A stretch of DNA of 64,000 bases from Leucoraja ocellata (GCA_036785375.1 JAWMAR010000400.1:372001-436000), one strand, 5' to 3'; numbered from the stretch's first letter, positions 13,420-63,771 are shown. Program-made: numbers and translations. The notes: generated by a model not told the origin, from the sequence alone.

Positions 13420-14157
13420 TTTCACCTCTAGCCTTTGTCACTAAAATCACTAATCATGCCAATCTCCATCATCAACTGTTCCACCCACCACATGCAATAC
13501 TTTGCCCCCTCCCCCATCTCTCTTTTCTTGTTTTCTCCTCCCTGCTCTGAAGAAGGGTCCTGACTCAGATGCTGCCTGAGTCCATTTCCCTCCACAGATG
13601 CTGCCTGACCTGCTGAGTTCCTTCACAACTATTTCTTTGCTCAAGATTCCAGCTGCAGTCTCATGTGTCTCCCGCAAAGAAATAATGTCTTCTGGAAATT
13701 AAAGACAAAATAAGAACAACATTGGAATCAAAAACTGTCCAATAACATTCTATAATGTCGGCTCCAGTAGCAATGTACAGAGATGTTTTAAATGCCAAAA
13801 CCTCTAATCATTTTAGTTATCACCATGGCAATTACAATAAAGAATAGCAGAACAGAAATGTTAATAAAAGCCTGGATATTTTCCACATACTCACTACTCC
13901 ATTTGAGTCACTACAACAAGGAAAACCATGATTGATAATCCCTGTCCTTAGTCCTGGCATGCTGAGTACTGTTCCAGTGATTCAACTGCTTGTGAGATCC
14001 ACTAACTCATCCCAACCAAATCTGGGATGTTTTACTTATTATCAGGCCACTACCTACTGGCCATAAGACACTAGGGTCAGGAAGTTATTGGAAAACTTAA
14101 TCAAGATCAATAAAGAAATCCTTAAATTGGTTTCAGGTGCTCCAATTCCTAGAGGTT

Positions 14158-44300: not shown

Positions 44301-47300
44301 GGGACGATCACATATTCACCCGGGGGTAGGCTGAAGCGCTCTGATACCTCCCGCAGGTTAATGTATGACTTTGACCTGCTTCTGGAGGCCTGGTAGAGGA
44401 AGAAATCTTTGGGAAGATGTTGCTTATTGCTGTACATCTGGGGGAGAAAAAGGAACAAAGTAAATTAAACATTATTTTCCAAGGACTGGCAGGATTGTCT
44501 GGAGAGCAACATTTCCCACTGCCAAGTCACCAATCAAAACAAGAATAATACAGGTACTTCCCAGGTAATGGCAGGGATCCATATCTGAGAATTGTTCATT
44601 CCAGGTGCATCTCACAGGTCAAAAATGCAGCTGTGAATCAAGTTCGCAGTCAGCAGAAGATGTCTGCACTCCGCAGTGACCAGCAATTCCATCTGCCAGA
44701 CAATTGTTTATATCTAGGACAGAATCTTAAATGCTGGTTTCAAATGAAGATAGACACAAAAGGCTGGAGTAACTCAGCGGGCATCTCTGGAGAAAAGAAA
44801 TAGGTGACGTTTCTGGTCGAGACCCTTCTTCAGAAAAAGGATCTCAACCCAAAACGCCACTTCTTCCTTTTCTCCAGCGATGCCGTCTAACCTGCTGAGT
44901 TACTCCAGCTTTTTATGTCCATCTTCGCTTGTTTATAAACTCAGGGCTGCATACAAGTCAGGTGTTCTAAAACTGCAGGCTAATGGTGATACTGATCAGC
45001 AGATAAATTGGGCAGAACAATGACAAACGGAATTTCATCCTCATAAATGTTAGGTGAAGCATTTTGTAGGAATCAGTGTTGGACATACATTATGAATGGA
45101 AGGGCCTCAGGGAGCATTAAGGAACATTGATGTACAAATCTATAAACCCTTGATTGTGGCAGCACAGGCAGATAAGGTGATGAACAAGGTGCATGAGATA
45201 CTTGCCTTTATTATCCAGGGCAAGCATCTAGGAGCAGAGAAATTATGGTACTGCTTTACAAAGCATTGATTAGGACACAATTGGAGAATAGTTTACAGTT
45301 TCGATCTCCATACTACAGGAAGGATGTGATTGCATTAAATGGTGGAAGGAGATTCACCAGCATTTTGGCTGTGATGGATTGGTTCATTTGCGAGGGAAGG
45401 CTCGATAGGCTAGGTTATTTCCCTTGGAGCAGAAGAGGCTGAGGGAGAACCTGATAAAAGGTATACAAAATTATGAGCTGCTCAGATAGGATGGATAGTA
45501 AGAAACCATTCCCCACAGAAATGTCTAAGATCAGAGATTATAGGTTTAAGATGAGTATTGGCATTGGCCTATGATTATCACATGTACCGAGATACAGTGA
45601 AAAGCTTTGTTGTGTGCAATCCAATCAAATCATACTATATACTAGTACAATCAACCCATACACAAATACAACAGGCAATGCAACGAGAAAAATACCAGAG
45701 TGCAGAATACAGTATTGCAACATTATAGCATTGCAGTTGACAGAAAATAAGTGCAAGGTGTGCAAGGTGCACAATGAGGTAGATTGGTAGATTGGGACTA
45801 CTCTTGATTATGGGAGGACAATGCAGTATTCTAATAACAGTGGGGAAGAAGCAGGGAAGTAGGAGGTTTGGAGGGGATCTGAAGAAGCTCTCTTCCACCC
45901 AGAGGTTGGCTGAAATCTGGAAACTATAGGTTGAGAAGGTGATGGAGGCAGGTACTCTCACAACAATAGTGAGCTATTTGTACAATACTTGAATCATCAA
46001 GGCATAGAAAGATACAGAACAAACGCTGGCAAATGGATTATCGGTAGACAATTGATGATCAATGTAAACATAAGCCTGTTTCTGTGTTGTATGGTTCAAT
46101 GACACAGTAAAACCAAATGGAAGGAAGAGTTCTCCCTGCAGCAAATTGAAAAATTACAACTAAAAAAGGCAAATTTTTGTATATAAAATCATGAGAGAAA
46201 TAGATCGGGTAGATGCACAGAATCTCTTGCCCAGAGTAAGGGAATCGAGGACCAGAGGACAAAGGTTTAAGGTGAAGCTGCCAGAGGAGGCAGATGAGGC
46301 TGGGATTATCCCAACATTTAAGAAACAGTTAGACATGTACATAGATAGGACAGGTTTGGAGGGATATGGACCAAGCGCAGGCAGGTGGGACTGTGTTGCT
46401 GGGACATGTTGGCCGGTGTAGGCATGTTCGGCCAAAGGGCCTATATTCCACACTGTAACACTCTTGACTCTAATTAGGGAATTTAAAATGTAAATTTATT
46501 GAGTGGCTCAAGAGATGGGCCAGGTTAAAAACCGGTGGCTCCAGAGTGATAATTATATGGTATAATTCCTGGCTCGGGAGGGTTTATTTGTGAAACACAA
46601 CCATGTTATAATGGTTAAAAAAAACACACACACTCCTTTCAGAACTGAATGGTAGAATACACAGGAAACAAAGCACTGCAAACATGTTAGAGCAAATCAG
46701 TCACATAAAACTTGTAATCGCAAATATTAGAACAAACATGTTGCAGTGATCTACAGCCATCCTTTGTTTATTTACCTCCTTTGGCACCTTTAAGAAAAAG
46801 AAAAAAAAGACAAATATTAACATTTCCATCAAAATCTAAAACATGCAAATACATACTCAAACTTTATAAGCACAGGGAATGTATCTGTAAGGCAAAATTT
46901 ACAGCACCACTAGTTTTGGTGCGGCAATGTGTGGGTGGTGAATGGGGAGGAACAGCAAGTCTGGGATGTCCAAACTCAGTTAGCTGCCCTGCTCACCCAG
47001 TCCAGGCACACCTGAAGGCATGGCCTGGCTAGGTCTGACAGCCTGTCAGCACCTCCTGTAGAAGAGTGACGACAAATTAATAATCTGTGATTTGTCACAG
47101 ATTTGTAAAAAAGACTCCCACATTTCCACACTTTGATTGAAGGTGAAGAATGTTGCTGCATTGGGCATGGATTTAAATCCAACCCAATTAAGATCAATAT
47201 CTGACCTGCCTGCTAGGGTAGATTTCCATTTCCCTGAGCGGGGATTATGGTGGAACAATTCACCGACCGTAAGGAAGCCAACACCGATCTCAGGGGAAAG

Positions 47301-50300
47301 GTGAACATGCAGTTTTGAAAACTGGAGTAGAATTTCCTCCATTACATTACAATCACAATGAACTAAAAAAACCTTGGAGAAACGAGGAACTGCTGATGTT
47401 GGCTTACAAATTAAGATACAAAGTGCTGGAGTAACTCAGCGGGTCAGGCAGCATCTCTGGAGGTAGTTGTTTTGCTCAGGACCCTTCTTCAGACTGCTTG
47501 TTGTGGGATGGGGGGCGGGGGTGGAGAAAGCTTCAAGGGAGGAGGGGCAGGACAAAGCCTAGCAAATTATAGATAAAACTAGAAGTGTGAAATGTGAAGC
47601 CAGAGGAAGGGAAACACATGGAAGAGGAAGGGGAGGGGATAAATGGTTGTGCACCTAGGTGGGACACAAGGAAGGGGGCCGGGTTTGTAGGTTAGTTACC
47701 CAAAATTGGAAAATTCAATGTTCATACCTGTAGATGGCTAGTGCATGTGCCTTTAACATAGTGACCTTACCACACTTAACCACTCCCCTTATCAGGGGTA
47801 TAACTGCATGTTCCCTCCCTGGTGTCTCTCTCTCTAGCTCTGGTGACAGACCACGTACAGCTAGTATAGCACTTATGTGAACAGTTAATAAAAGCTACAG
47901 TTAAGACAATGTGTTGATGAGACTTCTTTACATGGTGTCTCAGCTGTGAGACCCTGCGCCTCCTGTTTGCCGGTTTTCTTTTATTTTATACCCCAGTACC
48001 CTTATCCTGTTTCCTTCCCTCGTGCCATGGCCAACTCGTGCCGCAAGCCCGACCCGCTTGTATTTGATGGGGACATTGCCCATCGATGGGATGTCTTCCG
48101 ACGTGATTTTCAGCATTATGTGACCATCGCCCACCCTGCTGCCACCGCTGAGACGCGTGCATCTCTGCTCCTCAACTTGGCCGGTCCCGACGCCCTGGAA
48201 CGGTCCGAGTCATTTGTGTATGCTGCTGGTGAGAGTGCCCTCGACCCGGTATGTCTCATTGCTAAGTTCACTGCCCTGTGTGATGTTCCCACCAACTCTA
48301 TTTTGGAGCGTTTCAAAATGTTTGGCCGTCGGCAGAGCGCTGACGAGTCCGTCACTAACTACATCGCCGCGTTGAGGCACCTGGCTCGTCGCTGCCGCCT
48401 TGATGCCCTGACCCCCGAGCAGCTGACTCGTGATATCCTTGTGTACGGCCTCCGCGATACCAAACTGAGAGCAGAACTTCTCAGAATGCCCGAACTTTCT
48501 CTGGATGCGGCTCTACACGCTGCACTCATGGCTGAGGCTGTCGCCTCTACCCTGCCACCCGAGGACACTCATGTCGACTTAGCCTCTGCCACCGGCCGCC
48601 CAAGAAACGTTGCCCCGCGGCGGCAACAGGGTCCACCCCCACCCAAGTCCGGCGTCGCCCGCCGCTGCCCCAACTGCAACTTTGCTACCCATCAATTCAA
48701 CGTGTGCCCTGCCCTGGGGAAGACCTGCAATTTCTGCAGAAAGCTAAATCATTTTTCTGCAGCCTGCCGAGCCCGCGGGAATCCAGCCCCCCCTTTTCGG
48801 AGAGTGCCGGTCAACCTTGCTCAAGCTGATAGTACTGGCTCAGAGCACCTGCCTGATGATCTCACCCTTTCTGATATCAGTTCCTCCGAAGGGGAGGCCA
48901 ACGTGTTTTCGCTTCTAGACTCTCATGCTTTGGTTGCTAACCCTTCTGTCCGTGTGACCGTCAATGGTACGACCTTCTCGGCTAAGTTAGACACAGGCGC
49001 TTTCACAAATGTTATGTCAACAAGCCTGTTTCGCAAGATAAGGTCTGGTGAGAAAGTGTCTGCTGCTCACTCCCGCCTGCATGCATATGGGGGAGCCGTA
49101 CTCGTTCCTGTGGGAAAGACAACTCTGCACTGCAAGGTCCTGGAGGCCTCTCGGCCCCTCACTTTCTACCTGCTAGATTCCGACAACGTGACCCTGCTAG
49201 GCGCCCGAGCGTGCCAGGACCTCGGTTTGGTCTCCTTTCATCACGACATCCATCAGGTGCAGACCCTCATGGACCCCCTACGTGAATACCCTGACCGCTT
49301 CGATGACAGGCTGGGCAAGCTGCCCAGCTGCTACAAGATTGCTGTCGACTCCAGCATTGAGCCTGTGGTCCGCCCGCCACACCGCGTCTCCTTCGCCATG
49401 AAGGACAAGGTGAAGTCTGCGTTACTGAACATGGTCTCCAAGGGCATCCTGAAAGAGGTGAGCGAGCCCACCCGGTGGGTCTCCACCATGGTGGTGGCGG
49501 CGAAGAAGGACAAATCTGAGATTCGCATTTGCATCAACCCCAAGGACCTGAACCTGGCAATCAAACGCCCGCACTACCCGATGCGCACAGTAGAGGACGT
49601 CGCCGCACAGGTTGGCCCGGCCACTGTCTTTTCGGTCCTCGATGCCAAAAGCTCTTTCTGGCAGATACCGTTAGATGAACGTTCTTCCTACCTGACGACT
49701 TTCAGCACGCCTTTCGGAAGATTTCGATTTCTGCGCATGCCATTCGGCATCAACTCTGCCAGTGAGGTGTTCCAGCGGACCATGGAGCAGCTGTTCGCCG
49801 GTCTGCCGTGTGCCATCATAGTTGACGACATCCTGGTCTATGGCAAGGACGTGGCTGAACACGACCTGAACCTCCGTAAAGTCCTAGATCGGGCCCGGGA
49901 CATTAATCTGAAACTTAACCCAAAGAAATGTCGATTCCGCGTTAAAGAAGTCACTTACGTGGGCCACGTCTTTACCGCCTCGGGCCTGAAGCCCGACCCG
50001 GAGAAAACTGCTGCCGTCTCTGGAATGTCCCCTCCTACCGATGTGCCCGCTCTGCAGCGTTTCTTGGGCATGGTGAACTACCTGGGGAAGTTTATCCCTG
50101 ACCTCAGCAAACTGAGTGCGCCCCTGAGGGAGCTCATCAAAAAGGACACTGCCTGGGCTTGGTTCCCGCAACACCAACGCGCCTTTGACGTCCTGAAGTC
50201 CCGACTGGTCAGTACCCCCACACTCAATTTTTTTGACCTACAGCACCCCATTGTTCTCACCTGTGACGCTTCCAAGTTTGGCCTCGGCGCCGCTTGCATG

Positions 50301-53300: not shown

Positions 53301-56300
53301 GTGATGGTGGCAGAGTTCTGGCCGAACTCAGTTTGTGGATTGTGGGGTCTCCAGGAAAGGAACCCCGCTTGGATTATGAGGTCTCTAGGAAAGGAAATGA
53401 TGGATTCAGCAAAAGATGTAGTACAAGGAGCAGATAGATAATATTGTAAGGTGGAAGTTGAGCCAATGCACAGAGATATGGTGTTGGAAGTCAGACTAGC
53501 AACTGGATACAAAATATTGGTGATGGGTGGTATGGATGGGGTGGTTGAGAGCCTCTTGGAGACTGATTTTTCAGATGCTTTGCTTATAAAAAGCAGGTGA
53601 GTGAGAAAGAGGAGGGCATTGTCACATCCTTCATGGGTTGAAGCACAAGAACAGGAAGGGAGGATTCTTGTCACTAACTGGATAAAGATGGTTGTGGTTT
53701 GTGACCTTGTTCAGGAGCACTTCATTGCTGAGGCTGGAAAAGAAATCTGATGGTAGGGAGGGGGGATGGGGTTCACACAGAACACCTAACATGACACAAA
53801 CAAGTTGTCAGGCTCGTCATCTCATGTGTAGGAAGGAGCTGACTTAAACCGAAGATAGACACAAAAAGCTGGAGTAACTGAGCGGGACAGGCAGCATTTC
53901 TGGAGAGAAGGAATGGGTGACGTTTTGGGCCGAGACCCAAAGTCTGAAGAAAGGTCTCGATCCGAAACATCACCCATTCTTTCTCTCCACAGATTCTGCC
54001 TGCCCCGCTGAGTTACTCACGTTTTTTTTTGTCTATCTTAGTCATCTCATGTGCCTGAGGCTTTAGGCATGAGTGATCCTTTATCTAAATAAACAGCCTT
54101 TTGCTTTCCTTTTCAAATGAAAGATGCCCAAGTTAAAACATTGTCTGATTCTCTCTCCATGGATGTTTCCCAGCATTTGCTGATTTTATTCCAGATGTTC
54201 ATTTTTTGGATTTCCTTTGCCTCCTCTTTCTTTCCAAGATGCGCCAATCATGAAATGGAAAGAGTTCATCGTCTGATTCCTAAATTTGTCTGAACTTTAT
54301 CTTCGGAAGTTACCTCGTAAATTGCAAATCCAATGGTGTGAAAGCTGACGCCAATCTTGCGCTCCTTACGGCGGTTCTTTTGCATCAGAGCAACCACAAA
54401 CGTGCAGAGGACTTCATTGTCATCCGGATCATCGTCCTCCTCAAATAGTTTCAGCCGGTACTGCGGATTTGTCCAGAACGTGTCTGAAATGAAAGAATGG
54501 AGGGAAAACGATTTGTCACTGGTTGACAAAAGTGCCGGAGAAACTCAGCAGGCGCGGCAGAATCTATGGAGCGAAGGAAATAGGCAACCTTTCGGGCCGA
54601 AACGTTGCCTATTTCCTTCGCTCCATAGATGCTGCCGCGCCCGCTGAGTTTCTCCAGCATTTTACTCTACCTTCGATTTTCCAGCATCTGCAGTTCCTTC
54701 TTAAACGATTTGTCACTGGTGATCTGTTCTCACAGAGTCTAGAAGTAAAGAGAACAAAATACTGGAGATGGAACCGAGAAGGGAAGTCTAGGTGGTGCAA
54801 AGTCTAAGTCTGAGAAAAAAAGGAATAAACAAGGAGGAAGGAGGAGAATGAGAGGGAACACATAATAAAACATAAGCAGTAGTGCAGAAAAAAAAGGAAA
54901 CCAAGAGCAATAAAATTGGCGTCAGAAAAAGAATCAGATTGTCACAAAGACCCAGTGCAGGCATTTCCTCAGCCACTACCCACAACTCTTATCTGAGTGC
55001 ATCAGGCACCATTTTGCTGGCTGGCTCTTGTCAGCAAAAGGTCGGCTACACTTCACCATTGGACCACACTGTCTAACGGGAGCATTAGCGCGCTGGAGAG
55101 CCCCTGGATTCACTTCTTACATCACTTATCCTGGGCAGGATCCATGGCCTGATTCCTTTTTAATGACAATCATGCAGCTTCAGGGAAGGAAGATACGTTC
55201 GTAGTTTGAGTTGGCACATTCTTCTGTCACTGCATGAGCTACCTACAGGCATATCCAAAGATATGCACAACAGTACGTTAGTTGCCCAGTGTAAATGAAA
55301 ATGTACCCTGGTGTGTAGGTAATATCTGGGGGTGATTTGATGGCAATGCAGAGAGAATAGGTCACAGAAAATGTTAGCTGTGAATGGGGCTCATTGAACC
55401 AGTATAGACGATGGGTAAAAATGTCCTCCTGTGTCATAAGGAGATACGAAAATACTAAGAAAATATTATTAGCTCCTTCACAAGATTTGGAAGTTGAATA
55501 CAGTCTCCTCTCATTCCAAAATAAGTAAACAGTGAAAGATAACTGTGGAGGAGGAACAGGTAGGAAGTGGCAGGGAGAGAGGAGAGAGGAGGGAGGGGGG
55601 AACGAGAGGCACGACAGGTAGTTGAGAAGAACCCACCTGGATAGTTCCGGCAGCCTCCAGCGGAACAGCCCCTTACCCACCGCCCTTCATTGATGGAGAC
55701 CGTCCACTTATGGAGCTTGTCATCGTCCAGTGCGTCCGGCGTCAGGTTACAAATCTCCAGCTTTGTGTAGTTCCTCTTGAAATCATCAAAGGACATCCTG
55801 CAAGTGGCAAGGAGAGAGTGTATAGTGTTCCATCCAACATCCCACCATTCACTGGGAGCTTCAGGACTGGCTTGATTGAAAGATACAGCATGGAAACGGG
55901 CCCTTTGGCCCACCAAGACCATGCTGACCATCACATTGACATTGAAATGCCTTTATTAGTCGTTGTAAGCACGGCATGCAACAAAATTGTTATTGCCACT
56001 CCATTGGTGCATAATATACAAACATAAAAACACACGACACAATTTAAAAACAATGTTAAAACTAGGTATCAAGATAAATAAGTAATTAGTACTGCACATG
56101 GTGATAGTAAAGTTCAAGGTGGGTAGCAGCATGGAAGAGTGCAGCATGAATAATTGAGTGTGGAGATTGCTTTGGAGAAGAAACTGTCTCTGAGTCTGGA
56201 ACTGCGTGTTTTGGCTGACCTGTAACGCCTGCCAGAGGGCAACAGTTCAAAAAGGTGGTGCGGAGTCTTTGATGATTTTAGTGGCTCTGCTGAGGTGGCA

Positions 56301-59300
56301 ATATCCTCCAGAGAGGGCAGTGGGAAGTCGGTGATTCTCTCTGCTGTTTTTACCACTCTCTGGAGTGCTTCCTTATCTGCAGCAGAGCAGCCTGCATACC
56401 ACACGGACATGCAATATGTCAGTAGACTCTCAATGGTCGCCCGGTAGAAGGCCACCAGCAGCTTCTTCTAGGTATTGTGCCTCCTGAGCACTCTGGTTTT
56501 ATGTTATGTCACTTTTGCATCCACTCCCGACACACCAGGGGCAATTTACAGCAGACAATTAAACTATAAATCCACACATCTCTGGGATGTGGAATTAAAC
56601 CAGAGTACCTAGAGGAAACCCACATGCGTGTTTATTTGTAAGAAAGGAAGGAGGAAAAGAAAAAAGGAAAAGGTCACCCAATGGAGGGAAATAAACCAGA
56701 CCATTCTGCCCGTCAAGTCTATGTTGGCTCTGAGATCATTTCCACCATCCCATTCTGCCACTGATTTTTTTCTCACATCCCATTAACTCCTCCTGATACT
56801 CCTGCCACCCATTTGCACACGGAGTAATTTACAGTGGCAAATTAACCTGTCAACTCACATGTCTTCGGGTCATGGGAGGAAACTAGAGCACCTGGAGGAA
56901 ACCCACCCAGTCACAGGGAGAACATGCAAACCCCATGCAGACAGCATCGGAAGTCAGGATCGAACCGGCGTCTCTGGAGATGTGAGGCAGTGGCATTACC
57001 ACCTGTGCCCAATGTGCCACTCATCTCTTTATGACCAGGAATTCTGTTCACCTGTGGAGGACTACAGGGTTTCAGATTCTCCAAATTTCTGGTTCTTCTG
57101 TCCTCCGAGCACCTCCTTCATTGCCCTTGGGATTGTGAGACTGGGCAAGGGTAACTTACTTCAGGGAATCAACCAGTATGGGTAAAGATGGTGGCGTCAG
57201 AGGGCTATCTGATCACTGGAACACTCACAGGGAGGAGGAACTGATAGCCATGGGAATCAGTGATCAGAAACATCAAAAAACATACTGTCACAGTCAAAAG
57301 TGGGTATTGCCGACAATCTCCACTGAACTTCCCAGGAAGTTTTCATGTAATTCGGACTTCCAAGCTCACCCAGTAAACCTATTTTAGGGTCAGGTGGTGC
57401 GAGGGGAATGGCAGTAGAAAGGCCAACCGCAGTGCTTAATGTCAGGCAACAGAATGTTCATCCTCACCAGAACTCTCCGTCGTCTTTCATTAGATGATGC
57501 AGCCGCTGTTTTTGTGATTTCTCAATCTCAGACCACTCCCGAGCCCTGGAACGGGAAGGGAATACCTTCATCAGACCTGAACGCACTCACCTCTTTCCAG
57601 CCTCGCCTTATTCTGCCTCCCCCTACGGAAATGGAAACCAGGAACCTCCATAGCAGTGACAACACCTGCTGGGGGAGGGCTTCACCATGTCCAGACAGTG
57701 AGTGTTACAAACAGCTTACAACAATAAAAATAACACCTTGAACATTCCAAAATGTCCCTAGGAACTTCATTCGAGCATTTTCAAATAAAATGTGCCACCA
57801 AGCCACATACTACGGGAGACAATCACAAACTTGGTTGTCATGGTCTACTTGGGCCAAAGAACCTGTTTCCATGCTGTATGACTCTACACCTTTATTTAAA
57901 CCTGTAACCTGGTTCTAGATTCCCCCACAAGAGGAAATATCCTCCATACATTCACCTATCAAGCCTGTCAAGATCTGATGTCTTTTAATCTAACCTGTTA
58001 TTCTTCTAAACTTCTAAACACCGGCAGGTGCAAACCTAGTCTATCCACCCTTTCTTCAATAGCTTATTTGGGATAGTAGCTATTGGTCTAATAATCCTTC
58101 GCTGAATTGCTTCTAACTCTTTAATATCCTTCCTTAAATAAGACCAATACTGTACACAGTATTGTTCTGCACTGTCCTGTATTTTTACTTATGCTTAATA
58201 GGTAAATCATAATCTCATTTGAATTGGTTTCCTCCCAGTAAGTATGATCACATTGTTAGTTTTCATAATTACTTGCTGTACCTCATATTATACTTTTGAG
58301 AATAATGCACAGAAACCCAGACCCCTCGGCATCTTAGAGGTCCATAATCTCCCACCATTTCAATAATATGTTTCCTAGCAAAATGGACAACACGATGTCC
58401 CACATGTACTCCATTTGTCAGAATTATTTTCCCCACTCACTAAACTTATCTAACCTCTCTTTGATGTCCTTTTCACATGTACGTTTCTTCCTGTCCTTGT
58501 GCCATCATCTCCTTCATTGACATTGAATGTAAAAGGTTGAGGTCCCTGGCGATCACCACATTACATCTTACCCACCAGGTAAAGACTCTTTCATGCCCAG
58601 ACACTCTCCACAGACACTCTACAAGGAACCGCAGATGCCGGTTAATACAGGAAAATACCACAAGAAAAGTGCGGGAGTAACTCAGCGGGTCACGCAGCAT
58701 CACTGAAGAACATTGATAGGCGACATTTCAGGTTGGGACTCTTCTTCAGGTGGAGAAAGCTGGAAGAGACATGGGGACAGGACAAAGTCTGGCAAGTGAT
58801 AGGAGGATACAGGTGAGGGAGGAGGGGGTTGATTGGCTGATGGCTGGACAAATGCCAGAGGTGAAAAGACAACAATTGTGAGATCAGGAGATAAGGATTG
58901 AAGAGGAAAAGATTGTGAAGCCAGAAGATGGAGTAGACTGGCTAACAGGACCCAATCTTTGTGTCCTGTTAACCAGCAGTCTTCTACCCTGTCAGTATGT
59001 TAACCTCACACATCAAGAACTACTAATTTCCGCACTAACCTTTGATGTGTTGTCTTTTTAAATGCCTAGAAAGTGTAGACATCCACCAGTTCCCGTATAC
59101 TCACAACGCGTATTACACTTAAGATTACAAGTGAAAGCTCTGCCCTTGAATTCCTTTTCAAATAAAAGGTTTGACTATCCACGTACTGTTTCAAGAAACC
59201 CTCTATGTCACATCTCACAACTTCTGTCTAAGCCTTTGACACTGAGCGTCCCCAGTCAATATTGGGGCAGTTAAAGTCATCCACTAAGACAACCTTGTTG

Positions 59301-62300
59301 CATTGGCATCTTTCAGTCATCTGTCTACACATCTGATCCCCCGTCTCCTGCTTGCTAATGGAGGCCTATAGTACACTACCATTAGTATGCTTGAATCTTT
59401 CTTATTTCTAAGCTTTACCCATATCGCCTCAGCAGACGAACCCTCCATTATATCCTCTCTCATGTTGTTGTAACAGTCTCCCTGATTAGTAGCTCAACTC
59501 ATCCACCTCTTTTGCCTCCCCTCGATCACATCTGAAACATCGAGACACCGGGACATTGAGATGCCAGTTGTATCCCTCTCCCAATGGTGTAAAAGTCTGA
59601 ATCCTTGCCCCCTGCACTATCTCCTGAGCCACACATACATCTGTTCTATTCCTACCTTAATTAGCGCATGGCACCGGGAGTAATCTGGAGATTACAACCC
59701 TAGGTGTCCTGATTTTTAATTTCTGCCTAACTTCCAATATTCACTTTGCAGGACCTCATCCCTTTTCCAACCTATTGATGGCCAACTGAGGGAAAACGAT
59801 GAAGTGATGAACAAAAAAAGAAATTCAAAGAGTCTTGGAATATCCCTGAAGAGTTACAACATTTCCACACACCGAGGGGAACAACACTCGTTGAATTGTC
59901 GTGTTTGGCAAACCTGCATATAATGTGGCGCTCATTCATACAAAGAAGTTGAAATGGAGAAAGCAAAAAGGAAAACAAATCGCAAACCACTAACTTCAGA
60001 GTTCCTACTGACCTGTGTCAAAGGAAGCCCAGATTGGTCTAATCAGCCATCTCTGTAGGATCACAGGACTATACACTAGATGTCATGATCTTACTCGAGA
60101 ATGAATGACAAAGAACAACACCAACAACAAAATGGAGACAAAATGAAACAATACCACTTTATTTATCCCAGAGGAGACGCAATGAACTGCAGATGCTAGA
60201 ATCATGAACAATGGACAAAGCACTGGAGTAACTCAGTAGGCCAGGCAGCATCTGCAAGATTGCAAGATGTAGGCCAATGGTGAAGGACTAGCATTATATT
60301 TCCAAGCCAGGATGGTGTGCGAGTTGGAGGGGAACCTGCAGGAGGTGGTGTTTACCCTCAACTACTGCCCTTTTCCTTCTTGATGGTTTGGGAGATACTG
60401 ACGGAGTAGCCTGGTGAAATAGCAATGCATTTTGTAAATGGTTCACACTGAATTTGTAGATTTATGCTAGTGGTGGAGGGTAAAGTACCAAACAAGCAGC
60501 CTGCATTGTATTGTCGAGCTTTGTGAGTGAAGTTGGAGCTGCACTCACTCTGGCAAGCAAACAAACACCTGGTCTTTGTTATTAGGCTGCTCCCCGGATG
60601 AAGTCACAGAGCCCATGGTGATATACGGGTGGGGTGGGAGGGTGTGGGACAGACATGTTTTTCTTTTGCCCTCCAGACTTCCTTCAGTGCTATTTCTCTC
60701 AGGTCATTGGTTAACAATGAGAAGCTGGAACTTACAAACTGCAGGGACACTGAGATCAGCCAGAGTGGGTATTAATTAAGTATTGACAAAGAAAACAAAC
60801 TGGACCACATCTATAATTTCTAAATCTCTAAATGTTTGGAAAAAAGGAAAATGTACTTATCACTCCAGGCCCCGTTCCACTCAACCGAACCCCATGGATT
60901 CCTCAAACGTAACAACTTTATCTTCTGGTTTCGATACGTGACCTGAGGTCAAAATTACCATTGTTACATGGGAACAGGAACTTAAAGACATGTCAATAAA
61001 CACAAACATGGGAACCCTGATATTACCTCCATATCTGCAACCAAGAATTTATTCCTGAAAATGTGCCTATGTTAATGTTTTTAAATTTCTCCCAACTACT
61101 CTCCCAATCTTAGAATATGTGGAAAATAACCTGGGAGAGGGTGGGAGTATGGCTGAAACCTTACCAATGTCAGGATGAGTTTGCATTGTGTCGGGCTCTT
61201 CAGAGCTATCAGATGTCATAATGAACAAATCATATTTCTAACATTTCCAGGCCAAATTCAACCACTTGCAAAGCTTGTTCCGACACGTCTGGTCAGGATC
61301 CACTGTGGATGCCAGGTGTTTTTCCAGCACTGGAAACTCGCCTAATAATGATCCCATTTTCCCATGCCACAACACAAGTAGGAACTCCCGGATCTATAAT
61401 TCAACCATCATCTGGAAGTATTAAAGAAAGCTGCCCTGTGAACCAGAGTTCTTCATTCGTGTTCCTCGTAAAGGATGACTCTCTGAGGACTTCACAATGC
61501 TGCTGTAACACTCGCTGGAGGATGTTCAAAGTTATATAAAACCATCTCGTGAGGTGTTTGACGTTTTGTCAAGGCTGTGGAGGCTTGGTGACCGCGTTCA
61601 TTCAAAACAGGGATTGACCGATCTCTGGATATTAAAGGAATCAGCGGATATAGGAATGGTGCAGGAAAATGGCACTGAGGTAGTTGATCAGCCTTGATGA
61701 ATGGTGAAGCAGGCTTCGGGGCTGTGGCCGATTCCTGCTCCTATTTCTTATTTTTATATTAAAAAGATATGTTGAAAGATATTTTTAATTTGAAAAAATA
61801 TTCCCGATTAACATTATTAATGTGTGAATTTTAGGCTTGGCAACACGGTGAACTTGGCAAAGTCAGGGAGCTCAGGGTAGAAAACCCCATTTCTGCTGTG
61901 GAGAAGGAGACACAACAGCATACCTTGATGTCTTTGCAGAGCGTCAGCAGGCTCAGGTTTATTAAACGTGGTCCTTCCTGAGAGTGACACTCTGCAAGCA
62001 GTCGTCCAGTGATGCACATACTAGCTTGCTACACAGAGGCCAAGGCTATGGTCACACTCAATTTTCTAGCGAAGATAGATATAAAATGCTGAGTAACTCA
62101 GCGGGTCAGGCAGCATCTCTGGAGAAAAGGAGACATGACCTCAGGAAGGGTGGAGTCCATAAGGGCCTATTGTTGGCTGGGGAAGATGTGCTATCGAAAA
62201 GGATACAAGGATGCAAACATTAGAACTGGTAGCATCTTCCCCAGCCAAGAATGGGCCATCATGGACCACCCATCCTGGGGTCATCTGTTGCTGGTGCTGA

Positions 62301-63771
62301 TTTGAACTGGCCTTTACTTGCCTCCACTCGTCCCTCCACCCCCCTGCCCCATCTCTAGCTTTCAGTCTGATGAAGGGTTCCAACCCAAAACGTCACCTAT
62401 TCCTTATCTCCAGAGATACTGCCTGACTCTTGAGTTACTCCAGCATTTTGTGTTTATCTTCAGTACAAACCAGCATCTGCAGTTCCTACCTACTAACATT
62501 TCTAGCCTCAGGATCATCAGCAGCAAAAATCACTGTTTGCTCCTCTCTGCAGAATGGGACGGGTCACTGATGCTCTGCCTTGAGAAGAGGTTTCATTTCG
62601 AGACATAGCAGGGGGATGCCTCTGAATGAACCTCCAGTCCTGAGTTTGCCATTGATTGCATTGGTGGGTAGATTTAAGTTGTGCTGAAGAACCCTTGAGT
62701 TTGATGCAAATAAATAGAAATAAATCCAGGAATTTCAAAGAAATGTCCATAAAATAGCAGAAATTAGGCCATTCAATAAGATCATTGTTAATCTTTTACC
62801 TCAACATTACCTTCCTGTAATCACCCAAATATCCTTCAAGTATCAGGAGTGAATTTGATGCTATCTATCACCAGGCAGCACTGTCCTTGCAATCTAGTTA
62901 CATTTCTATGACTCGTGCTTCATTCCTAGGAGCTTGCACCTCACTAGACCCCCTGAGCAGTGCCCTCAGTCATCGATCTTGGAAGACAAGGGTTGTCCTT
63001 AACTTTCATGGTGACTGTCGTGTGTGTCCATTCTGAACCATCCTGCCCATTGTCCCTACAGTGACAGCCAGAGCACAACTGGAAACTAGATCAAATCTTG
63101 TTCCTCCATCTGCCTGACAGAATATTGCAGCGATCAGATTCACATCCAATCCATCTGGGCATTTATCAGATTCCTAAATTGTTTTCCATGAATCTACAGT
63201 GTGTCCATGTCACAGATTGCCCACAATGATATTTGAGTAAAATCTCGAGGACTCCCTTGCATTCACTTATTGTATCCCCAGTATCCCCCACATTCACTCC
63301 CCAATCCCCTGGTGTCCCCTATATTCACTTCCTGTATCCCAGTATTCCCTCATTCACCCCCTGTACCTTGGTATTCCCCATGATCATTCCCTGTCTCCTA
63401 GTATTCCCCATGATCACTCCCTGTCTCCTAGTATTCCCCATGTTCACTTCATGTACCCCAGTATTCCCCACATTCTCCCCCAGTACCCCAGTATTCCCCA
63501 CATTCACTCCCTATATCTCAGCATTCCCCAGAATGCTCCCTATTCGCTGGTGCTCCAAACATTTGAATTTGAGATTGAATTATTTCCTCAGAGTTACCTC
63601 CTGAAGCCCCAGTACTAGCTGCCATCTTCAGATAGGCTACTATAACATACATGACAAACTGCTTAATGCAAAGCATTCACACCTTACCTCGTCCAAACTG
63701 GTCACAGAGTAGGCATGGCCTTTGACCAGGCCGCTGGTTGTCCGTGTCTCAAACTGCAGGGGTACGTATGA
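14323..63771 (-). CDS. CAPN3: Calpain-3 (p94) orthologue, 5'-partial multi-exon gene (human-equivalent exons 7-14 and 16-24)
   Basis: 17 exons with GT-AG ends join in one frame (1479 nt). CAPN3-diagnostic peptides: [21 protein letters not shown]2 motif [10 protein letters not shown]-terminus [17 protein letters not shown]. Exon sizes 84,86,78,161,170,12,209,37,93,78,58,62,69,79,117,59,27 match the human CAPN3 pattern as I recall it, except exons 16 and 19. Exons 1-6 lie beyond the window end. Confidence 0.95.
15304..15433 (-). mobile_element. Single-arm Penelope-derived element with 14-bp TSD
   Basis: TSD GCCTTCACTACTGA at 15290-15303 and 15434-15447; begins at CTGAAGA on the minus strand. 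Confidence 0.8.
15721..15779 (-). CDS. CAPN3: CAPN3 exon 23 ([20 protein letters not shown])
   Basis: 59 nt; cag|GAG...GAG|gtaggt. Confidence 0.95.
16930..17690 (-). mobile_element. CR1 LINE 3' fragment, second subfamily (a separate short CR1 tail lies at about 16698-16872)
   Basis: ORF 17021-17710 with [15 protein letters not shown]; (TTATATGG)n tail. Confidence 0.9.
18990..19106 (-). CDS. CAPN3: CAPN3 exon 22 ([39 protein letters not shown])
   Basis: 117 nt; cag|GCT...A|gtaagt. Confidence 0.95.
20284..21023. mobile_element. PIF/Harbinger-type MITE
   Basis: TIRs TGGACCTGTCCCACTTA and TAAGTGCAACAGGCCCA; TAA TSD. Confidence 0.8.
21289..21367 (-). CDS. CAPN3: CAPN3 exon 21, EF-hand ([26 protein letters not shown])
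   Basis: 79 nt; cag|ACA...CAG|gtgagt. Confidence 0.95.
22614..22682 (-). CDS. CAPN3: CAPN3 exon 20, EF-hand ([23 protein letters not shown])
   Basis: 69 nt; cag|ACA...CAG|gtacgt. Confidence 0.95.
23991..24695 (+). mobile_element. CR1 LINE 3' fragment with stop codons, inside the U12 intron
   Basis: [13 protein letters not shown]-coding sequence; (CTATTGT)n tail. Confidence 0.9.
25673..26543 (-). mobile_element. GC/CpG-rich non-autonomous retroposon
   Basis: 5' end TTCCGGTAGGCGGCG; 3' ATTAAA plus (GAATCTT)n tail; no recognisable protein. Confidence 0.7.
26941..27002 (-). CDS. CAPN3: CAPN3 exon 19 ([21 protein letters not shown])
   Basis: 62 nt; cag|ACA...GAT|gtatcctt (U12-type donor). Confidence 0.93.
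27395..27968 (-). mobile_element. Penelope-derived inverted-repeat element
   Basis: Same family; arms at about 27395-27570 and 27830-27968. Confidence 0.7.
28143..28378. mobile_element. PIF/Harbinger-type palindromic MITE
   Basis: TGCCCCTGTCCCACTTAGG...CCTAAGTGGGACAGTGGCA; inverted arms of about 90 bp; TAA TSD. Confidence 0.88.
29101..29535. mobile_element. PIF/Harbinger-type MITE inserted in a CR1 tail
   Basis: AGGGGCTGTCCCACTTGG...CCAAGTGGGACAGGCCCT; TTA TSD; internal repeats of about 10 bp (GACCTCCTTC, GACTACCCTC). Confidence 0.85.
30771..30828 (-). CDS. CAPN3: CAPN3 exon 18, PEF domain ([19 protein letters not shown])
   Basis: 58 nt; cag|GAC...AAC|gtaagt. Confidence 0.93.
30874..31526. 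repeat. Direct duplication of about 150 bp (30874-31026 and 31382-31526)
   Basis: TTGATCTAACA.GTAACTAAAGG...GACAGAATATTGCAGGAGTCCATCCA present twice with a few differences. Confidence 0.88.
32378..32455 (-). CDS. CAPN3: CAPN3 exon 17 ([26 protein letters not shown])
   Basis: 78 nt; cag|CCC...GAC|gtaagt. Confidence 0.92.
32559..33214 (+). mobile_element. CR1 LINE 3' fragment
   Basis: ORF 32529-33086 is CR1 RT C-terminus; CTATTGT tail. Confidence 0.9.
33908..34494 (-). mobile_element. CR1 LINE 3' fragment, nearly identical to 11541-12120
   Basis: ORF 34006-34620; (TTTCTATG)n tail. Confidence 0.9.
34610..35755 (+). mobile_element. Degraded Penelope-like fragment with a nested minus-strand retroposon tail (about 35090-35300)
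   Basis: GATAGAGTCCCCCTGG..CACCCCACCAGCCTC Penelope-type sequence and a pLTR-like end at about 35630-35755. Confidence 0.6.
36178..36270 (-). CDS. CAPN3: CAPN3 exon 16, IS2 insertion ([31 protein letters not shown])
   Basis: tag|CCA ATC ATC TTT GTT TCT GAT AGA GCT matches the IS2 motif PIIFVSDRA; 93 nt; the donor AAG|gtttct is weak, so the 3' boundary is less sure. Confidence 0.82.
36790..37005 (-). mobile_element. Penelope-derived hairpin element
   Basis: Inverted arms; CTGAACA-AGGGTCTCGACCT-GAAACGTC at 36912-36939. Confidence 0.75.
40220..40950 (+). mobile_element. Degraded nested CR1 3' fragments
   Basis: ACTAGAGG.CATAGGTTTAAG and TTTTTCACCCAGAG CR1 motifs occur twice; ends approximate. 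Confidence 0.7.
41320..41887 (-). mobile_element. Penelope-derived inverted-repeat element
   Basis: Inverted pLTR-like arms; degenerate TSD CCAGTTAGA(G/A)AGAA at about 41303 and 41888. Confidence 0.7.
43162..43198 (-). CDS. CAPN3: CAPN3 exon 14 ([12 protein letters not shown])
   Basis: 37 nt; cag|GGA...AAG|gttagt; size and phase fit. Confidence 0.85.
44229..44437 (-). CDS. CAPN3: CAPN3 exon 13 ([15 protein letters not shown]...[13 protein letters not shown]...[11 protein letters not shown])
   Basis: 209 nt; cag|ATG...GA|gtgagt. Confidence 0.95.
44730..44927 (-). mobile_element. Penelope-derived hairpin element
   Basis: Inverted arms; minus-strand CTGAAGA-AGGGTCTCGACCA-GAAACGTC at 44806-44833. 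Confidence 0.75.
44990..46470 (+). mobile_element. Cluster of degraded CR1 fragments with an intervening minus-strand retroposon tail (about 45570-45860)
   Basis: [15 protein letters not shown]-like and [12 protein letters not shown]-like remnants; ends approximate. Confidence 0.65.
46776..46787 (-). CDS. CAPN3: CAPN3 exon 12, 12-nt microexon (VPKE)
   Basis: Long pyrimidine tract then aag|GTG CCA AAG GAG|gtaaat; same peptide and size as human exon 12. Confidence 0.88.
47729..47932 (+). repeat. 5' LTR
   Basis: TGTAGA...TTTACA, contains AATAAA. Confidence 0.95.
48027..52136 (+). CDS. Gypsy gag-pol polyprotein (1369 aa from the first ATG)
   Basis: Two CX2CX4HX4C knuckles, protease LDTGA, RT ([17 protein letters not shown]), RNase H (CDAS, TDHQPL), integrase (H..H..C..C, LVDSYS, SDNG, SNGLAER), Pro-rich tail ending [11 protein letters not shown]. 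Confidence 0.95.
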   Translation: MANSCRKPDPLVFDGDIAHRWDVFRRDFQHYVTIAHPAATAETRASLLLNLAGPDALERSESFVYAAGESALDPVCLIAKFTALCDVPTNSILERFKMFGRRQSADESVTNYIAALRHLARRCRLDALTPEQLTRDILVYGLRDTKLRAELLRMPELSLDAALHAALMAEAVASTLPPEDTHVDLASATGRPRNVAPRRQQGPPPPKSGVARRCPNCNFATHQFNVCPALGKTCNFCRKLNHFSAACRARGNPAPPFRRVPVNLAQADSTGSEHLPDDLTLSDISSSEGEANVFSLLDSHALVANPSVRVTVNGTTFSAKLDTGAFTNVMSTSLFRKIRSGEKVSAAHSRLHAYGGAVLVPVGKTTLHCKVLEASRPLTFYLLDSDNVTLLGARACQDLGLVSFHHDIHQVQTLMDPLREYPDRFDDRLGKLPSCYKIAVDSSIEPVVRPPHRVSFAMKDKVKSALLNMVSKGILKEVSEPTRWVSTMVVAAKKDKSEIRICINPKDLNLAIKRPHYPMRTVEDVAAQVGPATVFSVLDAKSSFWQIPLDERSSYLTTFSTPFGRFRFLRMPFGINSASEVFQRTMEQLFAGLPCAIIVDDILVYGKDVAEHDLNLRKVLDRARDINLKLNPKKCRFRVKEVTYVGHVFTASGLKPDPEKTAAVSGMSPPTDVPALQRFLGMVNYLGKFIPDLSKLSAPLRELIKKDTAWAWFPQHQRAFDVLKSRLVSTPTLNFFDLQHPIVLTCDASKFGLGAACMQLHDGQQLPVSYASRTMTPAEQRYAQIEKELLAVVFACSRFKDYILGNTFTIETDHQPLVTILNKPIHAASSRLQRMMLQLQRFTFTIVYRKGKDMFVADTLSRAPLPSSARHPYESSDLMVLNVNVVPSKQMQSLISHTAKDPALQLLSDIIIQGWPERRSSLPASVVPYFLVRDELVLHDGVVVKGHKVVVPESLRVAYFQSAHNGHPGAEATLSSAQGQFYWPSMANDIREWVSACPSCNSLAPHQQRQPLLQQPAPDLPWTAVATDIFEWRGKHFLVLVDSYSNWFEVDQLHSLSSSAVIGRLRRHFATFGSPARLQSDNGSQFTSAEFQRFASQWNFKHFTSSPEYPQSNGLAERAVRSAKGLLEHCRLSKSDFHLALLNLRNISRDPALGSPAQRLLSRRTRPPLPVAQQALAPSVLPPAMVQERITAKHDSQKRSHDQSCRPLPPLFPGQIVRMQTTSGHYKLATVVGDTGSPRSYLVDHDGVIYRRSRQHLLLVNEPPPPPAAPFSPPLPESAPAAPRMPRSLPSPLVTPPSPPPSPRSPSTPPAVGSPPAPVFSPAGSPPVSPVRSPAPAPAALVPAGGGGGEHRTRSGRLVKPPVRYGDFV
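52222..52425 (+). repeat. 3' LTR
   Basis: 203/204 identical to the 5' LTR by eye. Confidence 0.95.
53829..54040 (-). mobile_element. Short Penelope-derived hairpin retroelement with 13-bp TSD and hammerhead-like core
   Basis: TSD GTCATCTCATGTG at 53816-53828 and 54041-54053; CTGAAGA..GAAACATC at 53944-53971 (+). Confidence 0.8.
54314..54483 (-). CDS. CAPN3: CAPN3 exon 11, CBSW domain ([22 protein letters not shown]...IGFAIYE)
   Basis: 170 nt; cag|ACA...GAG|gtaact; acidic loop. Confidence 0.95.
54524..54702 (+). mobile_element. Short Penelope-derived hairpin retroelement with 18-bp TSD
   Basis: TSD AAACGATTTGTCACTGGT at 54506-54523 and 54703-54720; inverted arms of about 70 bp centred on TTCGGGCCGAA. 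Confidence 0.85.
55637..55797 (-). CDS. CAPN3: CAPN3 exon 10 ([21 protein letters not shown]...[11 protein letters not shown])
   Basis: 161 nt; cag|GAT...CAG|gtgggt; AGGCRNY motif. Confidence 0.95.
55935..56495 (-). mobile_element. Rex1/Babar-like LINE 3' fragment
   Basis: [18 protein letters not shown]...[11 protein letters not shown]...[13 protein letters not shown]; AATAAA and TCAATG-repeat tail. Confidence 0.8.
57468..57545 (-). CDS. CAPN3: CAPN3 exon 9 ([26 protein letters not shown])
   Basis: 78 nt; cag|GGC...TG|gtgagg; DGEFW motif. Confidence 0.93.
60857..60942 (-). CDS. CAPN3: CAPN3 exon 8, catalytic Asn ([28 protein letters not shown])
   Basis: 86 nt; cag|GTC...AA|gtacat; RNPWG motif; absent from the ORF track, translated by hand. 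Confidence 0.95.
63260..63530. repeat. Minisatellite, 30-bp unit, about 9 copies
   Basis: GTATTCCCC recurs every 30 bp (63341, 63371, 63401, 63431, 63461, 63491). Confidence 0.9.
63688..63771 (-). CDS. CAPN3: CAPN3 exon 7, protease core, catalytic His ([28 protein letters not shown])
   Basis: 84 nt; cag|TCA...GAG|gtaagg; GHAYS motif. Confidence 0.95.

What the first reader, a model, noticed from the sequence alone, without database searches (positions are those of the whole stretch)
53816..54053. Family of tiny Penelope-derived hairpin retroelements carrying minimal hammerhead-ribozyme-like cores
Seen: at least 15 copies of a 130-600 bp repeat (about 900, 11200, 11480/12330, 13550, 15300, 19730, 27400, 31040, 35630, 36790, 41320, 44730, 47390, 53830, 54520, 58630, 62070). 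They share the consensus CTGA(A/T)GA-A-GGGTC-TC-GACCC-GAAA-C(G/A)TC. The best cores are 53944-53971 (+) and 44806-44833 (-); 62367-62394 has CTGATGA but AAAA. Many are head-to-head inverted pairs with 13-18 bp TSDs, and the same sequence terminates the GIY-YIG Penelope fragments here. Known: CUGANGA..GAAA..NUH is the hammerhead catalytic core, and Penelope pLTRs carry minimal hammerheads with a palindromic mini stem III that act as dimers. Inference: a non-coding, retrozyme-like, pLTR-only family mobilised by Penelope RT/endonuclease, placing possible self-cleavage motifs on both strands of the CAPN3 pre-mRNA. Caveat: stem I looks only 2-3 bp, so most copies may be dead.
Basis: partly seen in the sequence, partly recalled or inferred. 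Interest (0 to 1): 0.72.

Follow-up and report, generated by a model that had tools for sequence, protein, structure and literature searches.

The report
Double-primed Penelope stubs, broken hammerheads
These repeats are the ribozyme-bearing end piece of a recently active Penelope-type jumping gene, a known structure whose copies in this window all have damaged ribozyme motifs, but their mirror-image copies almost always have one long and one short end, which likely means the element copies one RNA from both sides of the DNA cut.

Summary
The repeat family is real: 21 insertions in the window and an estimated 1.4 million unit copies genome-wide. It is not a separate retrozyme family. It is the pseudo-LTR (minimal hammerhead plus leader) of a young Neptune/Nematis-type Penelope-like element that is present full length in this genome. 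None of 31 window copies keeps an intact hammerhead. The focal core is mutated, antisense to the calpain pre-mRNA and predicted to be locked in a long hairpin, so pre-mRNA cleavage is unsupported. Inverted pLTRs, tails, TSDs and minimal hammerheads are published. Not found in my paper searches: 78 of 81 TSD-bounded hairpins pair one long end with one short end; both arms share variants; either arm can reach deeper; and the junction's central base comes from either arm (30:24). This fits two cDNAs primed from both cut strands at two fixed RNA sites, not fold-back copying. Rare permuted copies restart at the predicted cut, weak evidence of cleavage in vivo. This scan reported the same readings before, in this and other genomes.

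The parts
53816..53828 (.). Left target-site duplication, 13 bp
   Evidence: Exact repeat of 54041-54053
53829..53938 (-). Long arm: pLTR from unit position 15 (first base of stem II) to the long end, with the ~37-nt tail; no CUGANGA, GAAA changed to AAAA; sense to the calpain pre-mRNA
   Evidence: nhmmer model 15-136, TSD-defined end 133
53941..54040 (+). Short arm: pLTR from unit position 4 to the short end, no tail; antisense to calpain
   Evidence: nhmmer model 4-103, TSD-defined end 102; arms match at 73 of 89 shared positions
53944..53971 (+). Decayed minimal hammerhead motif (G10.1 to A, stem II C to T, helix III CG to CA)
54041..54053 (.). Right target-site duplication
54314..54483 (-). 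Calpain exon lying between two hairpin insertions
   Evidence: Calpain motifs and AG/GT borders
54506..54720 (.). Hairpin of the young subfamily joined at the stem II palindrome, 18-bp TSD, short left arm and long right arm, no CUGANGA
11184..12982 (-). GIY-YIG Penelope fragment whose own 3' unit is 11184-11319; interrupted by the hairpin 11459-12488 (17-bp TSD), itself interrupted by a LINE-type fragment
915..1045 (-). Single copy, decayed core
1298..1356 (-). Partial copy without core
7353..7388 (-). Partial copy without core
13546..13659 (+). Old single copy
15290..15447 (-). Solo stub from unit position 7 to the long end, 14-bp TSD
19728..19832 (-). Old single copy
27395..27979 (.). Head-to-head pair with 345-bp spacer
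31020..31184 (.). Head-to-head pair, one arm very short
35631..35747 (+). Old single copy
36790..37032 (.). Compact head-to-head pair, no TSD found
41303..41901 (.). Head-to-head pair with spacer, 14-bp TSD, long plus short end
43423..43601 (.).
44704..44937 (.). Compact hairpin, 9-bp TSD, long plus short end; core 44806-44833 (-) broken at 10.1-11.1
47382..47497 (-). Single copy, decayed core
58623..58751 (-). Single copy, decayed core
60181..60253 (-). Partial copy without core
62063..62506 (.). Head-to-head pair with 231-bp spacer; core 62367-62394 lacks GAAA

Best explanation
The repeats are stubs of the hammerhead-bearing pseudo-LTR of an autonomous Penelope-like retrotransposon, and each hairpin was likely made at insertion by two cDNAs primed from the two cut DNA strands at two fixed sites of one RNA. 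Shown: the 138-nt unit is both the 3' end and the 5' leader of a ~4-kb element with a 1240-aa RT plus GIY-YIG ORF; it has two 3' ends ~37 nt apart; hairpins carry one of each end and a 10-22 bp TSD. Inferred: the protein makes a staggered double-strand cut; one 3'-OH primes at the short site and the other at the long site; the cDNAs often run off an uncut RNA that starts at the front edge of the hammerhead (likely the transcription start); they then anneal at the motif's own palindromes or are end-joined, and the central mismatch is repaired either way. The copies then decay. The hammerhead likely matters only in the source RNA, where it may cut a minority of molecules; the window copies are predicted to be inert as ribozymes.
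For: Parent: 20 of 20 young RT+EN copies (main blocks 95.7-99.4% identical to one copy) end in the unit ~115 nt after the stop, 14 at the short end and 6 at the long end. In 7 of 8 parsed full-length loci the unit sits directly before the ATG, cut-to-ATG 136 nt in three exact cases. 8 of 15 older GIY-YIG loci have the core at a fixed distance downstream, 3 more further away. One-long-one-short rule: 78 of 81 de-duplicated hairpins with TSD>=10 bp, p=4e-20 against the 50% ceiling for independent choice; chance TSD control 2 of 60; 54 of 57 young hairpins scored by tail presence. Same template: arms in the same subfamily 69 of 73, 23% expected; one variant in both arms 17, neither 30, one arm 2, p=3e-11. 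Two separate cDNAs: short arm reaches deeper in 14 and long arm in 5 of 78; central base from the long arm 30, short arm 24. Palindromic junctions: 2,366 loci at stem II, about 590 at the front palindrome in the young subfamily. Front-edge start: 12 of 26 TSD-flanked solo stubs start at unit 2-8, none at the cut. In vitro precedent: a PLE protein nicks and extends both strands, starts RT at two internal sites flanking the tail, is predicted to be a dimer and uses mainly uncut RNA (PMC11167929).
Against: All evidence is genomic footprint; no biochemistry. Shared variants could also come from gene conversion between arms, or from two RNAs of one source locus. 78 of 161 pairs had no TSD>=10 bp and were left out of the main count, and 32 of the 78 long-short pairs were fetched by core or junction patterns. 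Only 26 of 400 unpaired copies gave a TSD-flanked stub. The transcription start is not mapped. The focal junction is not palindromic. [quoted passage not shown]
Confidence: 0.75

Rival explanations
1. Fold-back or self-priming: one cDNA (or an antisense template, as proposed in PMC3846280) folds back at a palindrome and copies itself, and the endonuclease trims one arm to the short site.
For: Junctions sit at palindromes; arms share variants; published proposals (PMC3846280, PMC8557442, passages).
Against: The short arm holds sequence absent from the long arm in 14 of 78 pairs while lacking the tail; the central base comes from the short arm in 24 of 54. A single self-copying cDNA gives neither.
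Confidence: 0.12
2. One reading: an independent non-coding, retrozyme-like family that spreads as a pLTR-only unit and can cut host pre-mRNA.
For: Very many pLTR-only copies; rare tandem laps of 173-202 nt, one locus with four identical junctions and a whole hammerhead per lap; retrozymes derive from PLE pLTRs (bioRxiv 10.64898/2026.07.22.740005).
Against: Every combination of junction type and central base occurs on several haplotypes; hairpins occur in seven subfamilies; tandem neighbours within 100 bp are 9 against 40 head-to-head in 500 kb; 0 of 31 window cores intact; hairpin fold buries GAA, unpaired probability 0.00.
Confidence: 0.08
3. MITE-like DNA transposon, or chance juxtaposition of two independent insertions.
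For: Inverted repeats plus TSD; high copy density.
Against: Ends are asymmetric and TSD length varies from 10 to 22 bp; one TSD encloses both arms; arms match in subfamily 69 of 73; the unit belongs to an RT element.
Confidence: 0.02
4. The motif is kept in source elements mainly as promoter and protein-binding sequence, not as a ribozyme (compatible with the best explanation on insertion).
For: Stem I is 2 bp; no two-sided compensatory change seen; hammerhead fold -4.5 against MFE -8.0 kcal/mol, and the predicted dimer pairs through stem II, not helix III; no genome-wide peak of starts at the cut, 695 against 768 four bases downstream; Penelope has an internal initiator/DPE promoter (PMC2377424, passages).
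Against: Subfamily changes fall on hammerhead-tolerant positions; permuted copies restart exactly at the cut more than at neighbouring bases; starts drop to 335 one base upstream.
Confidence: 0.3

Closest known systems
EN+ Penelope-like elements with inverted pLTR, one-sided tail and TSD (PMC3846280 and PMC8557442, passages read; PMC8969392, passage)
   Same: RT plus C-terminal GIY-YIG ORF, partial tandems, inverted 5' copy, 30-40 bp tail on one end, variable TSD, palindromes at the inverted junction
   Different: Here many insertions shrink to two pLTR stubs of ~200-240 bp; the one-long-one-short rule and mixed central base argue against the self-priming model given there
[quoted passage not shown]
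   Same: CUGANGA, extra base before G10.1, G10.1-C11.1, GAAA, palindromic 15.2-16.2, mostly single dispersed motifs, dual motifs on opposite strands 100-700 bp apart
   Different: Helix II 4 bp and helix I 2 bp (as in D. virilis); activity untested; window copies decayed
Poseidon element of Anolis (Frangieh et al. 2024, PMC11167929, main text read)
   Same: Two internal RT start sites flanking the tail, downstream of the hammerhead; both strands nicked and extended; uncut RNA is the main template
   Different: This parent has the CX4CxxC linker (Neptune/Nematis type); the hammerhead lies 136 nt before the ATG, not across it; the paper does not link the two sites to the two arms of inverted copies
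Metazoan non-LTR retrozymes (PMC7229834, passages; bioRxiv 10.64898/2026.07.22.740005, parts 1-3 of 5 read)
   Same: Non-coding, type I hammerhead, pLTR-related, long TSDs
   Different: Retrozymes are head-to-tail arrays with a hammerhead per unit; here such arrays are rare and hairpins are head-to-head
L1 twin priming (recalled, no call)
   Same: Both DNA ends prime on one RNA
   Different: Twin priming inverts the upstream part without duplication; here both primers start ~37 nt apart and duplicate the same stretch

Membership tests
EN+ Penelope-like element (parent) | Single ORF with RT and C-terminal GIY-YIG endonuclease | tested here: met
   1240 aa, no stop; RVT_1 E=7e-6, GIY-YIG E=0.025, both below curated cut-offs
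EN+ Penelope-like element (parent) | DKG motif and cysteine pair between GIY and YIG | tested here: met
   DKG at 646, CxxC before YIGET at 1150; criteria from PMC8557442
EN+ Penelope-like element (parent) | pLTR formed by partial tandem | tested here: met
   Unit after the stop in 20 of 20 and before the ATG in 7 of 8 parsed loci
EN+ Penelope-like element (parent) | Inverted 5' copy, one-sided 30-40 bp tail, variable TSD | tested here: met
Neptune/Nematis type | CX2-5CxxC linker between RT and EN (absent in Penelope/Poseidon) | tested here: met
   CX4CxxC at 1107
Neptune/Nematis type | RT tree placement; match to a named Repbase/Dfam family | not testable with these tools
   No PLE reference set held; no PDB relative
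Minimal PLE hammerhead (source sequence) | Core boxes, extra base before 10.1, G10.1-C11.1, palindromic helix III | tested here: met
   Met in the large subfamily majority lines and in 12 of 209 sampled copies
Minimal PLE hammerhead (source sequence) | Compensatory change in stems | tested here: inconclusive
   Only one-sided changes (U-A to U-G in stems I and II)
Minimal PLE hammerhead (source sequence) | Self-cleavage as dimer or with protein | not testable with these tools
   Indirect only: restart junctions at the cut; no RNA end pile-up
Minimal PLE hammerhead (window copies) | Intact core able to fold | tested here: not met
   0 of 31 intact; focal copy predicted as a -128/-123 kcal/mol hairpin
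Non-LTR retrozyme | Head-to-tail repeats with a hammerhead in each unit | tested here: not met
   Not in the window; only rare arrays elsewhere, e.g. L296 and L300
Non-LTR retrozyme | Own lineage, amplified as a unit | tested here: not met
   Junction type and central base unlinked to haplotype
Non-LTR retrozyme | Accumulates as circular RNA | not testable with these tools
   No suitable library
MITE / DNA transposon | Symmetric terminal inverted repeats and fixed-length TSD | tested here: not met

The most novel reading that the evidence does not exclude
Penelope-like elements insert by two-site double priming: a protein dimer holds one RNA, cuts both DNA strands 10-20 nt apart and starts one cDNA at each tail-flanking site, and the ribozyme's own palindromes join the two cDNAs. 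This would explain the inverted pLTR, the one-sided tail and the TSD in one step. In addition, the hammerhead cuts in the germ line, and RT re-copies the resulting ~175-nt leader RNA lap after lap, which would seed retrozyme-like arrays.
Probability: 0.5. Interest if true: 0.68.

Novelty: new member of a known kind. Interest (0 to 1): 0.42.

Why it matters
As a gene feature it is ordinary: dead stubs of a known class of retrotransposon. As a natural experiment it is useful. PMC8557442 calls the origin of PLE inverted repeats and tails undefined. This genome holds an estimated quarter of a million hairpin footprints and a young intact parent, which give sharp predictions for the existing in vitro system. 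The same copies offer a fossil test of whether minimal hammerheads cut in vivo, which PMC4209133 and PMC11167929 left open.

Tried and rejected
Rfam scan: no hammerhead model hit, only miRNA-like hairpin matches below gathering scores. Genome-wide peak of copy starts at the cut: not found; 695 at the cut, 335 one base upstream, 768 four bases downstream; the counts mix point changes, junctions and truncations (4, 9 and 17 of 30 inspected). Expression: no RNA holder listed as such. Raw RNA reads of related, coded organisms cover the parent and the unit but show no begin or end pile-up at the cut (that stretch covered the 3' unit and most of the ORF but not the leader, because I mis-oriented the coordinates). 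On 53300-55900 RNA reads fell almost only on repeat copies and none on the calpain exons, so splicing, editing or cleavage of this pre-mRNA could not be tested. Extra core conservation: 7.1% against 9.9% non-CpG divergence in sampled loci, p=0.002; I do not count it as selection on copies, because subfamilies are coarse, were clustered on the non-core positions, and HMM detection favours good cores. 'Poseidon', my first label, was dropped after the linker motif. The tally dropped some loci through faulty de-duplication and was redone. PDB search with the parent ORF: 0 hits. Lunse et al. on dimer cleavage could not be opened and is known only through the review PMC6765202. No supplements were read; those of PMC4209133 and PMC11167929 may hold cartilaginous-fish motifs or strand-resolved start sites.

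Full report
Observation. The window lies at G000:C400:372001-436000 in a 3.44-Gb genome; a cartilaginous fish is my guess from the repeats, and no call names it. Self-BLAST and a 138-position profile HMM find 32 arm hits in 21 insertions, covering all 17 listed places, with 0 hits in reversed control sequence. Fifty 10-kb stretches taken at fixed offsets of large contigs gave 209-210 hits and 37 head-to-head pairs. Scaled up, that is about 1.4 million unit copies and about 250,000 hairpins; this is an extrapolation from 500 kb. The focal element is TSD (13 bp), long arm on the - strand (unit 15-133), two spacer bases, short arm on the + strand (unit 4-102), TSD. It sits 260 bp into the intron after a calpain exon at 54314-54483 on the - strand.

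The hammerhead. The source motif has the published marks of a minimal type I hammerhead: CUGANGA, one extra base, G10.1-C11.1, a 4-bp stem II, GAAA, a palindromic helix III and a 2-bp stem I (criteria from PMC4209133). Across eight subfamily majority lines from 470 copies, change falls on N7, loop II, H17 and one-sided wobble changes, plus CpG-decay sites, mainly in old clusters; no two-sided compensation was seen. The window copies are dead by sequence: 0 of 31 pass, against 12 of 209 sampled copies. The focal + strand core has G10.1 to A and has lost the helix III CG, and it is antisense to calpain. The arm that is sense to calpain lacks CUGANGA. Either strand is predicted to fold into one long hairpin (-127.7 and -122.9 kcal/mol) that pairs the GAA of the core. 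A head-to-head pair gives one sense core per strand, so it cannot supply the tandem dimer.

The parent. A GIY-YIG fragment in the window led to RT-bearing loci. Twenty long-frame copies are nearly identical, and all end in the unit ~115 nt after the stop codon, 14 at a short end and 6 at a long end ~37 nt further; 12 of 20 gave a 10-16 bp TSD by script. One copy has an unbroken 1240-aa ORF with DKG, YIDD, a CX4CxxC linker and the endonuclease cysteine pair, which points to the Neptune/Nematis type (PMC8557442). At least 40 places match its leader at 98% or more. Of 20 such loci my anchor parsed 8; 7 of these carry the unit directly before the ATG. So the unit is a true pseudo-LTR. The focal copy belongs to an older subfamily (8% mean divergence), of the kind that ends older GIY-YIG fragments (8 of 15 loci at a fixed distance, 3 further, 4 none).

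How hairpins form. Of 161 head-to-head pairs, 83 had a TSD of 10 bp or more; 80 had one long and one short end, 78 of 81 after de-duplication. Independent choice of ends cannot exceed 50%. Mismatched flanks gave a TSD in 2 of 60 trials. Among 57 young hairpins with palindromic junctions, 54 had the tail on exactly one arm. Arms come from one template lineage: same subfamily in 69 of 73, and minor variants shared by both arms (17 both, 30 neither, 2 split; 7, 41, 0 at a second site). They are not copies of each other: the short arm reaches deeper in 14 pairs and the long arm in 5, and the central base of the junction comes from the long arm in 30 and the short arm in 24. All four junction and centre classes occur on several haplotypes, which argues against a master hairpin. 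Junctions favour the motif's palindromes: 2,366 loci at stem II and about 590 at the front palindrome in the young subfamily; 27 of the first 50 loci listed have the one-base spacer and none has zero. Solo stubs start at the front edge of the motif (12 of 26 at unit 2-8, none at the cut), so the usual template is uncut RNA, likely starting there. This front-edge reading came from earlier scan notes and was then tested. I infer double priming at two sites of one RNA, in line with in vitro results for an Anolis element (PMC11167929).

Does the ribozyme cut? Bulk counts show no peak at the cut. But rare permuted copies join the ORF start (mostly 20-63 nt past the ATG) back to the leader. Of 4 new insertions, two restart at the cut, one at +1 and one at +7. 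Of 14 further loci, 3 restart exactly at the cut, 1 at -1, 4 at the front edge (-28 to -30), 3 at +7 to +9, and 3 elsewhere. Among the 8 within -6 to +9, three at exactly 0 has p about 0.01, but the query itself restarted at 0, which biases the ranking. Laps within one locus can differ in junction (L284, L291), which favours template jumps over a covalent circle; L296 has four identical laps. I rate in vivo cleavage at about 60%.

What is known. Inverted pLTRs, one-sided tails, TSDs and junction palindromes are described (PMC3846280, PMC8557442, PMC8969392, passages). Dispersed and opposite-strand minimal hammerheads are described (PMC4209133). A pLTR origin of retrozymes is proposed (bioRxiv 10.64898/2026.07.22.740005). 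Searches listed no paper whose title or abstract start, or the passages I read, explains inverted PLE copies by two-site double priming; subscription journals, Repbase and supplements were not seen. Earlier unchecked notes of this scan reach the same readings in this and other genomes; they are not independent evidence.

Verdict. Real, abundant, and a new member of a known class. The value lies in the insertion footprint, which makes an open mechanistic question testable. Interest 0.42.

Noticed in passing
window 47729-52425 (+): Very young Ty3/gypsy LTR retrotransposon in a calpain intron, opposite to the gene: 1414-aa open gag-pol frame (protease, RT, RNase H, integrase), LTRs identical at 203 of 204 bases, 5-bp TSD.
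   Followed up: partly
window 54506-54720: This hairpin inserted 22 bp from the splice acceptor of exon 54314-54483. The exon is thus flanked by two related hairpins whose arms could pair across it; an effect on splicing is untested.
   Followed up: partly
window 11459-12488: Nested insertions: a hairpin inside the endonuclease end of an older Penelope copy, then a LINE-type fragment inside the hairpin. Two other loci (L013, L030) have their 5' break at about the same endonuclease-end site, a possible hot spot.
   Followed up: partly
L284:1250-1900, L291, L296, L300, L286: Tandem laps of 173-202 nt of the leader; restarts at the predicted cut or at the front edge; some junctions carry extra A residues. 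Possible seeds of retrozyme arrays.
   Followed up: yes
G000:C2551:5700-9913: Two leaders 3,978 bp apart on one strand, likely a full tandem of the young parent, the layout needed for a hammerhead dimer.
   Followed up: no
L127:3370-5545 (parent ORF region): RNA reads of related organisms lie more often on the strand that would be antisense to the element under usual library conventions; library strandedness was not verified.
   Followed up: no
window 28139-28382, 52438-52793, 62135-62284, 20412-20481: Other palindromes unrelated to this unit; 62135-62284 lies inside the spacer of the 62063-62506 pair.
   Followed up: no
window 2687-2713 (+): A CUGAUGA...GAAA motif with a possible stem outside this family; may be chance or another element's hammerhead.
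   Followed up: no
window, unpaired copies: Nine unpaired copies lie on the - strand and two on the + strand besides the 11184 copy; too few to call a bias.
   Followed up: no
L265, L261, G000:C28:10488777-10488933: Short stutters (31-61 bp period) of the sequence just after the cut site.
   Followed up: no
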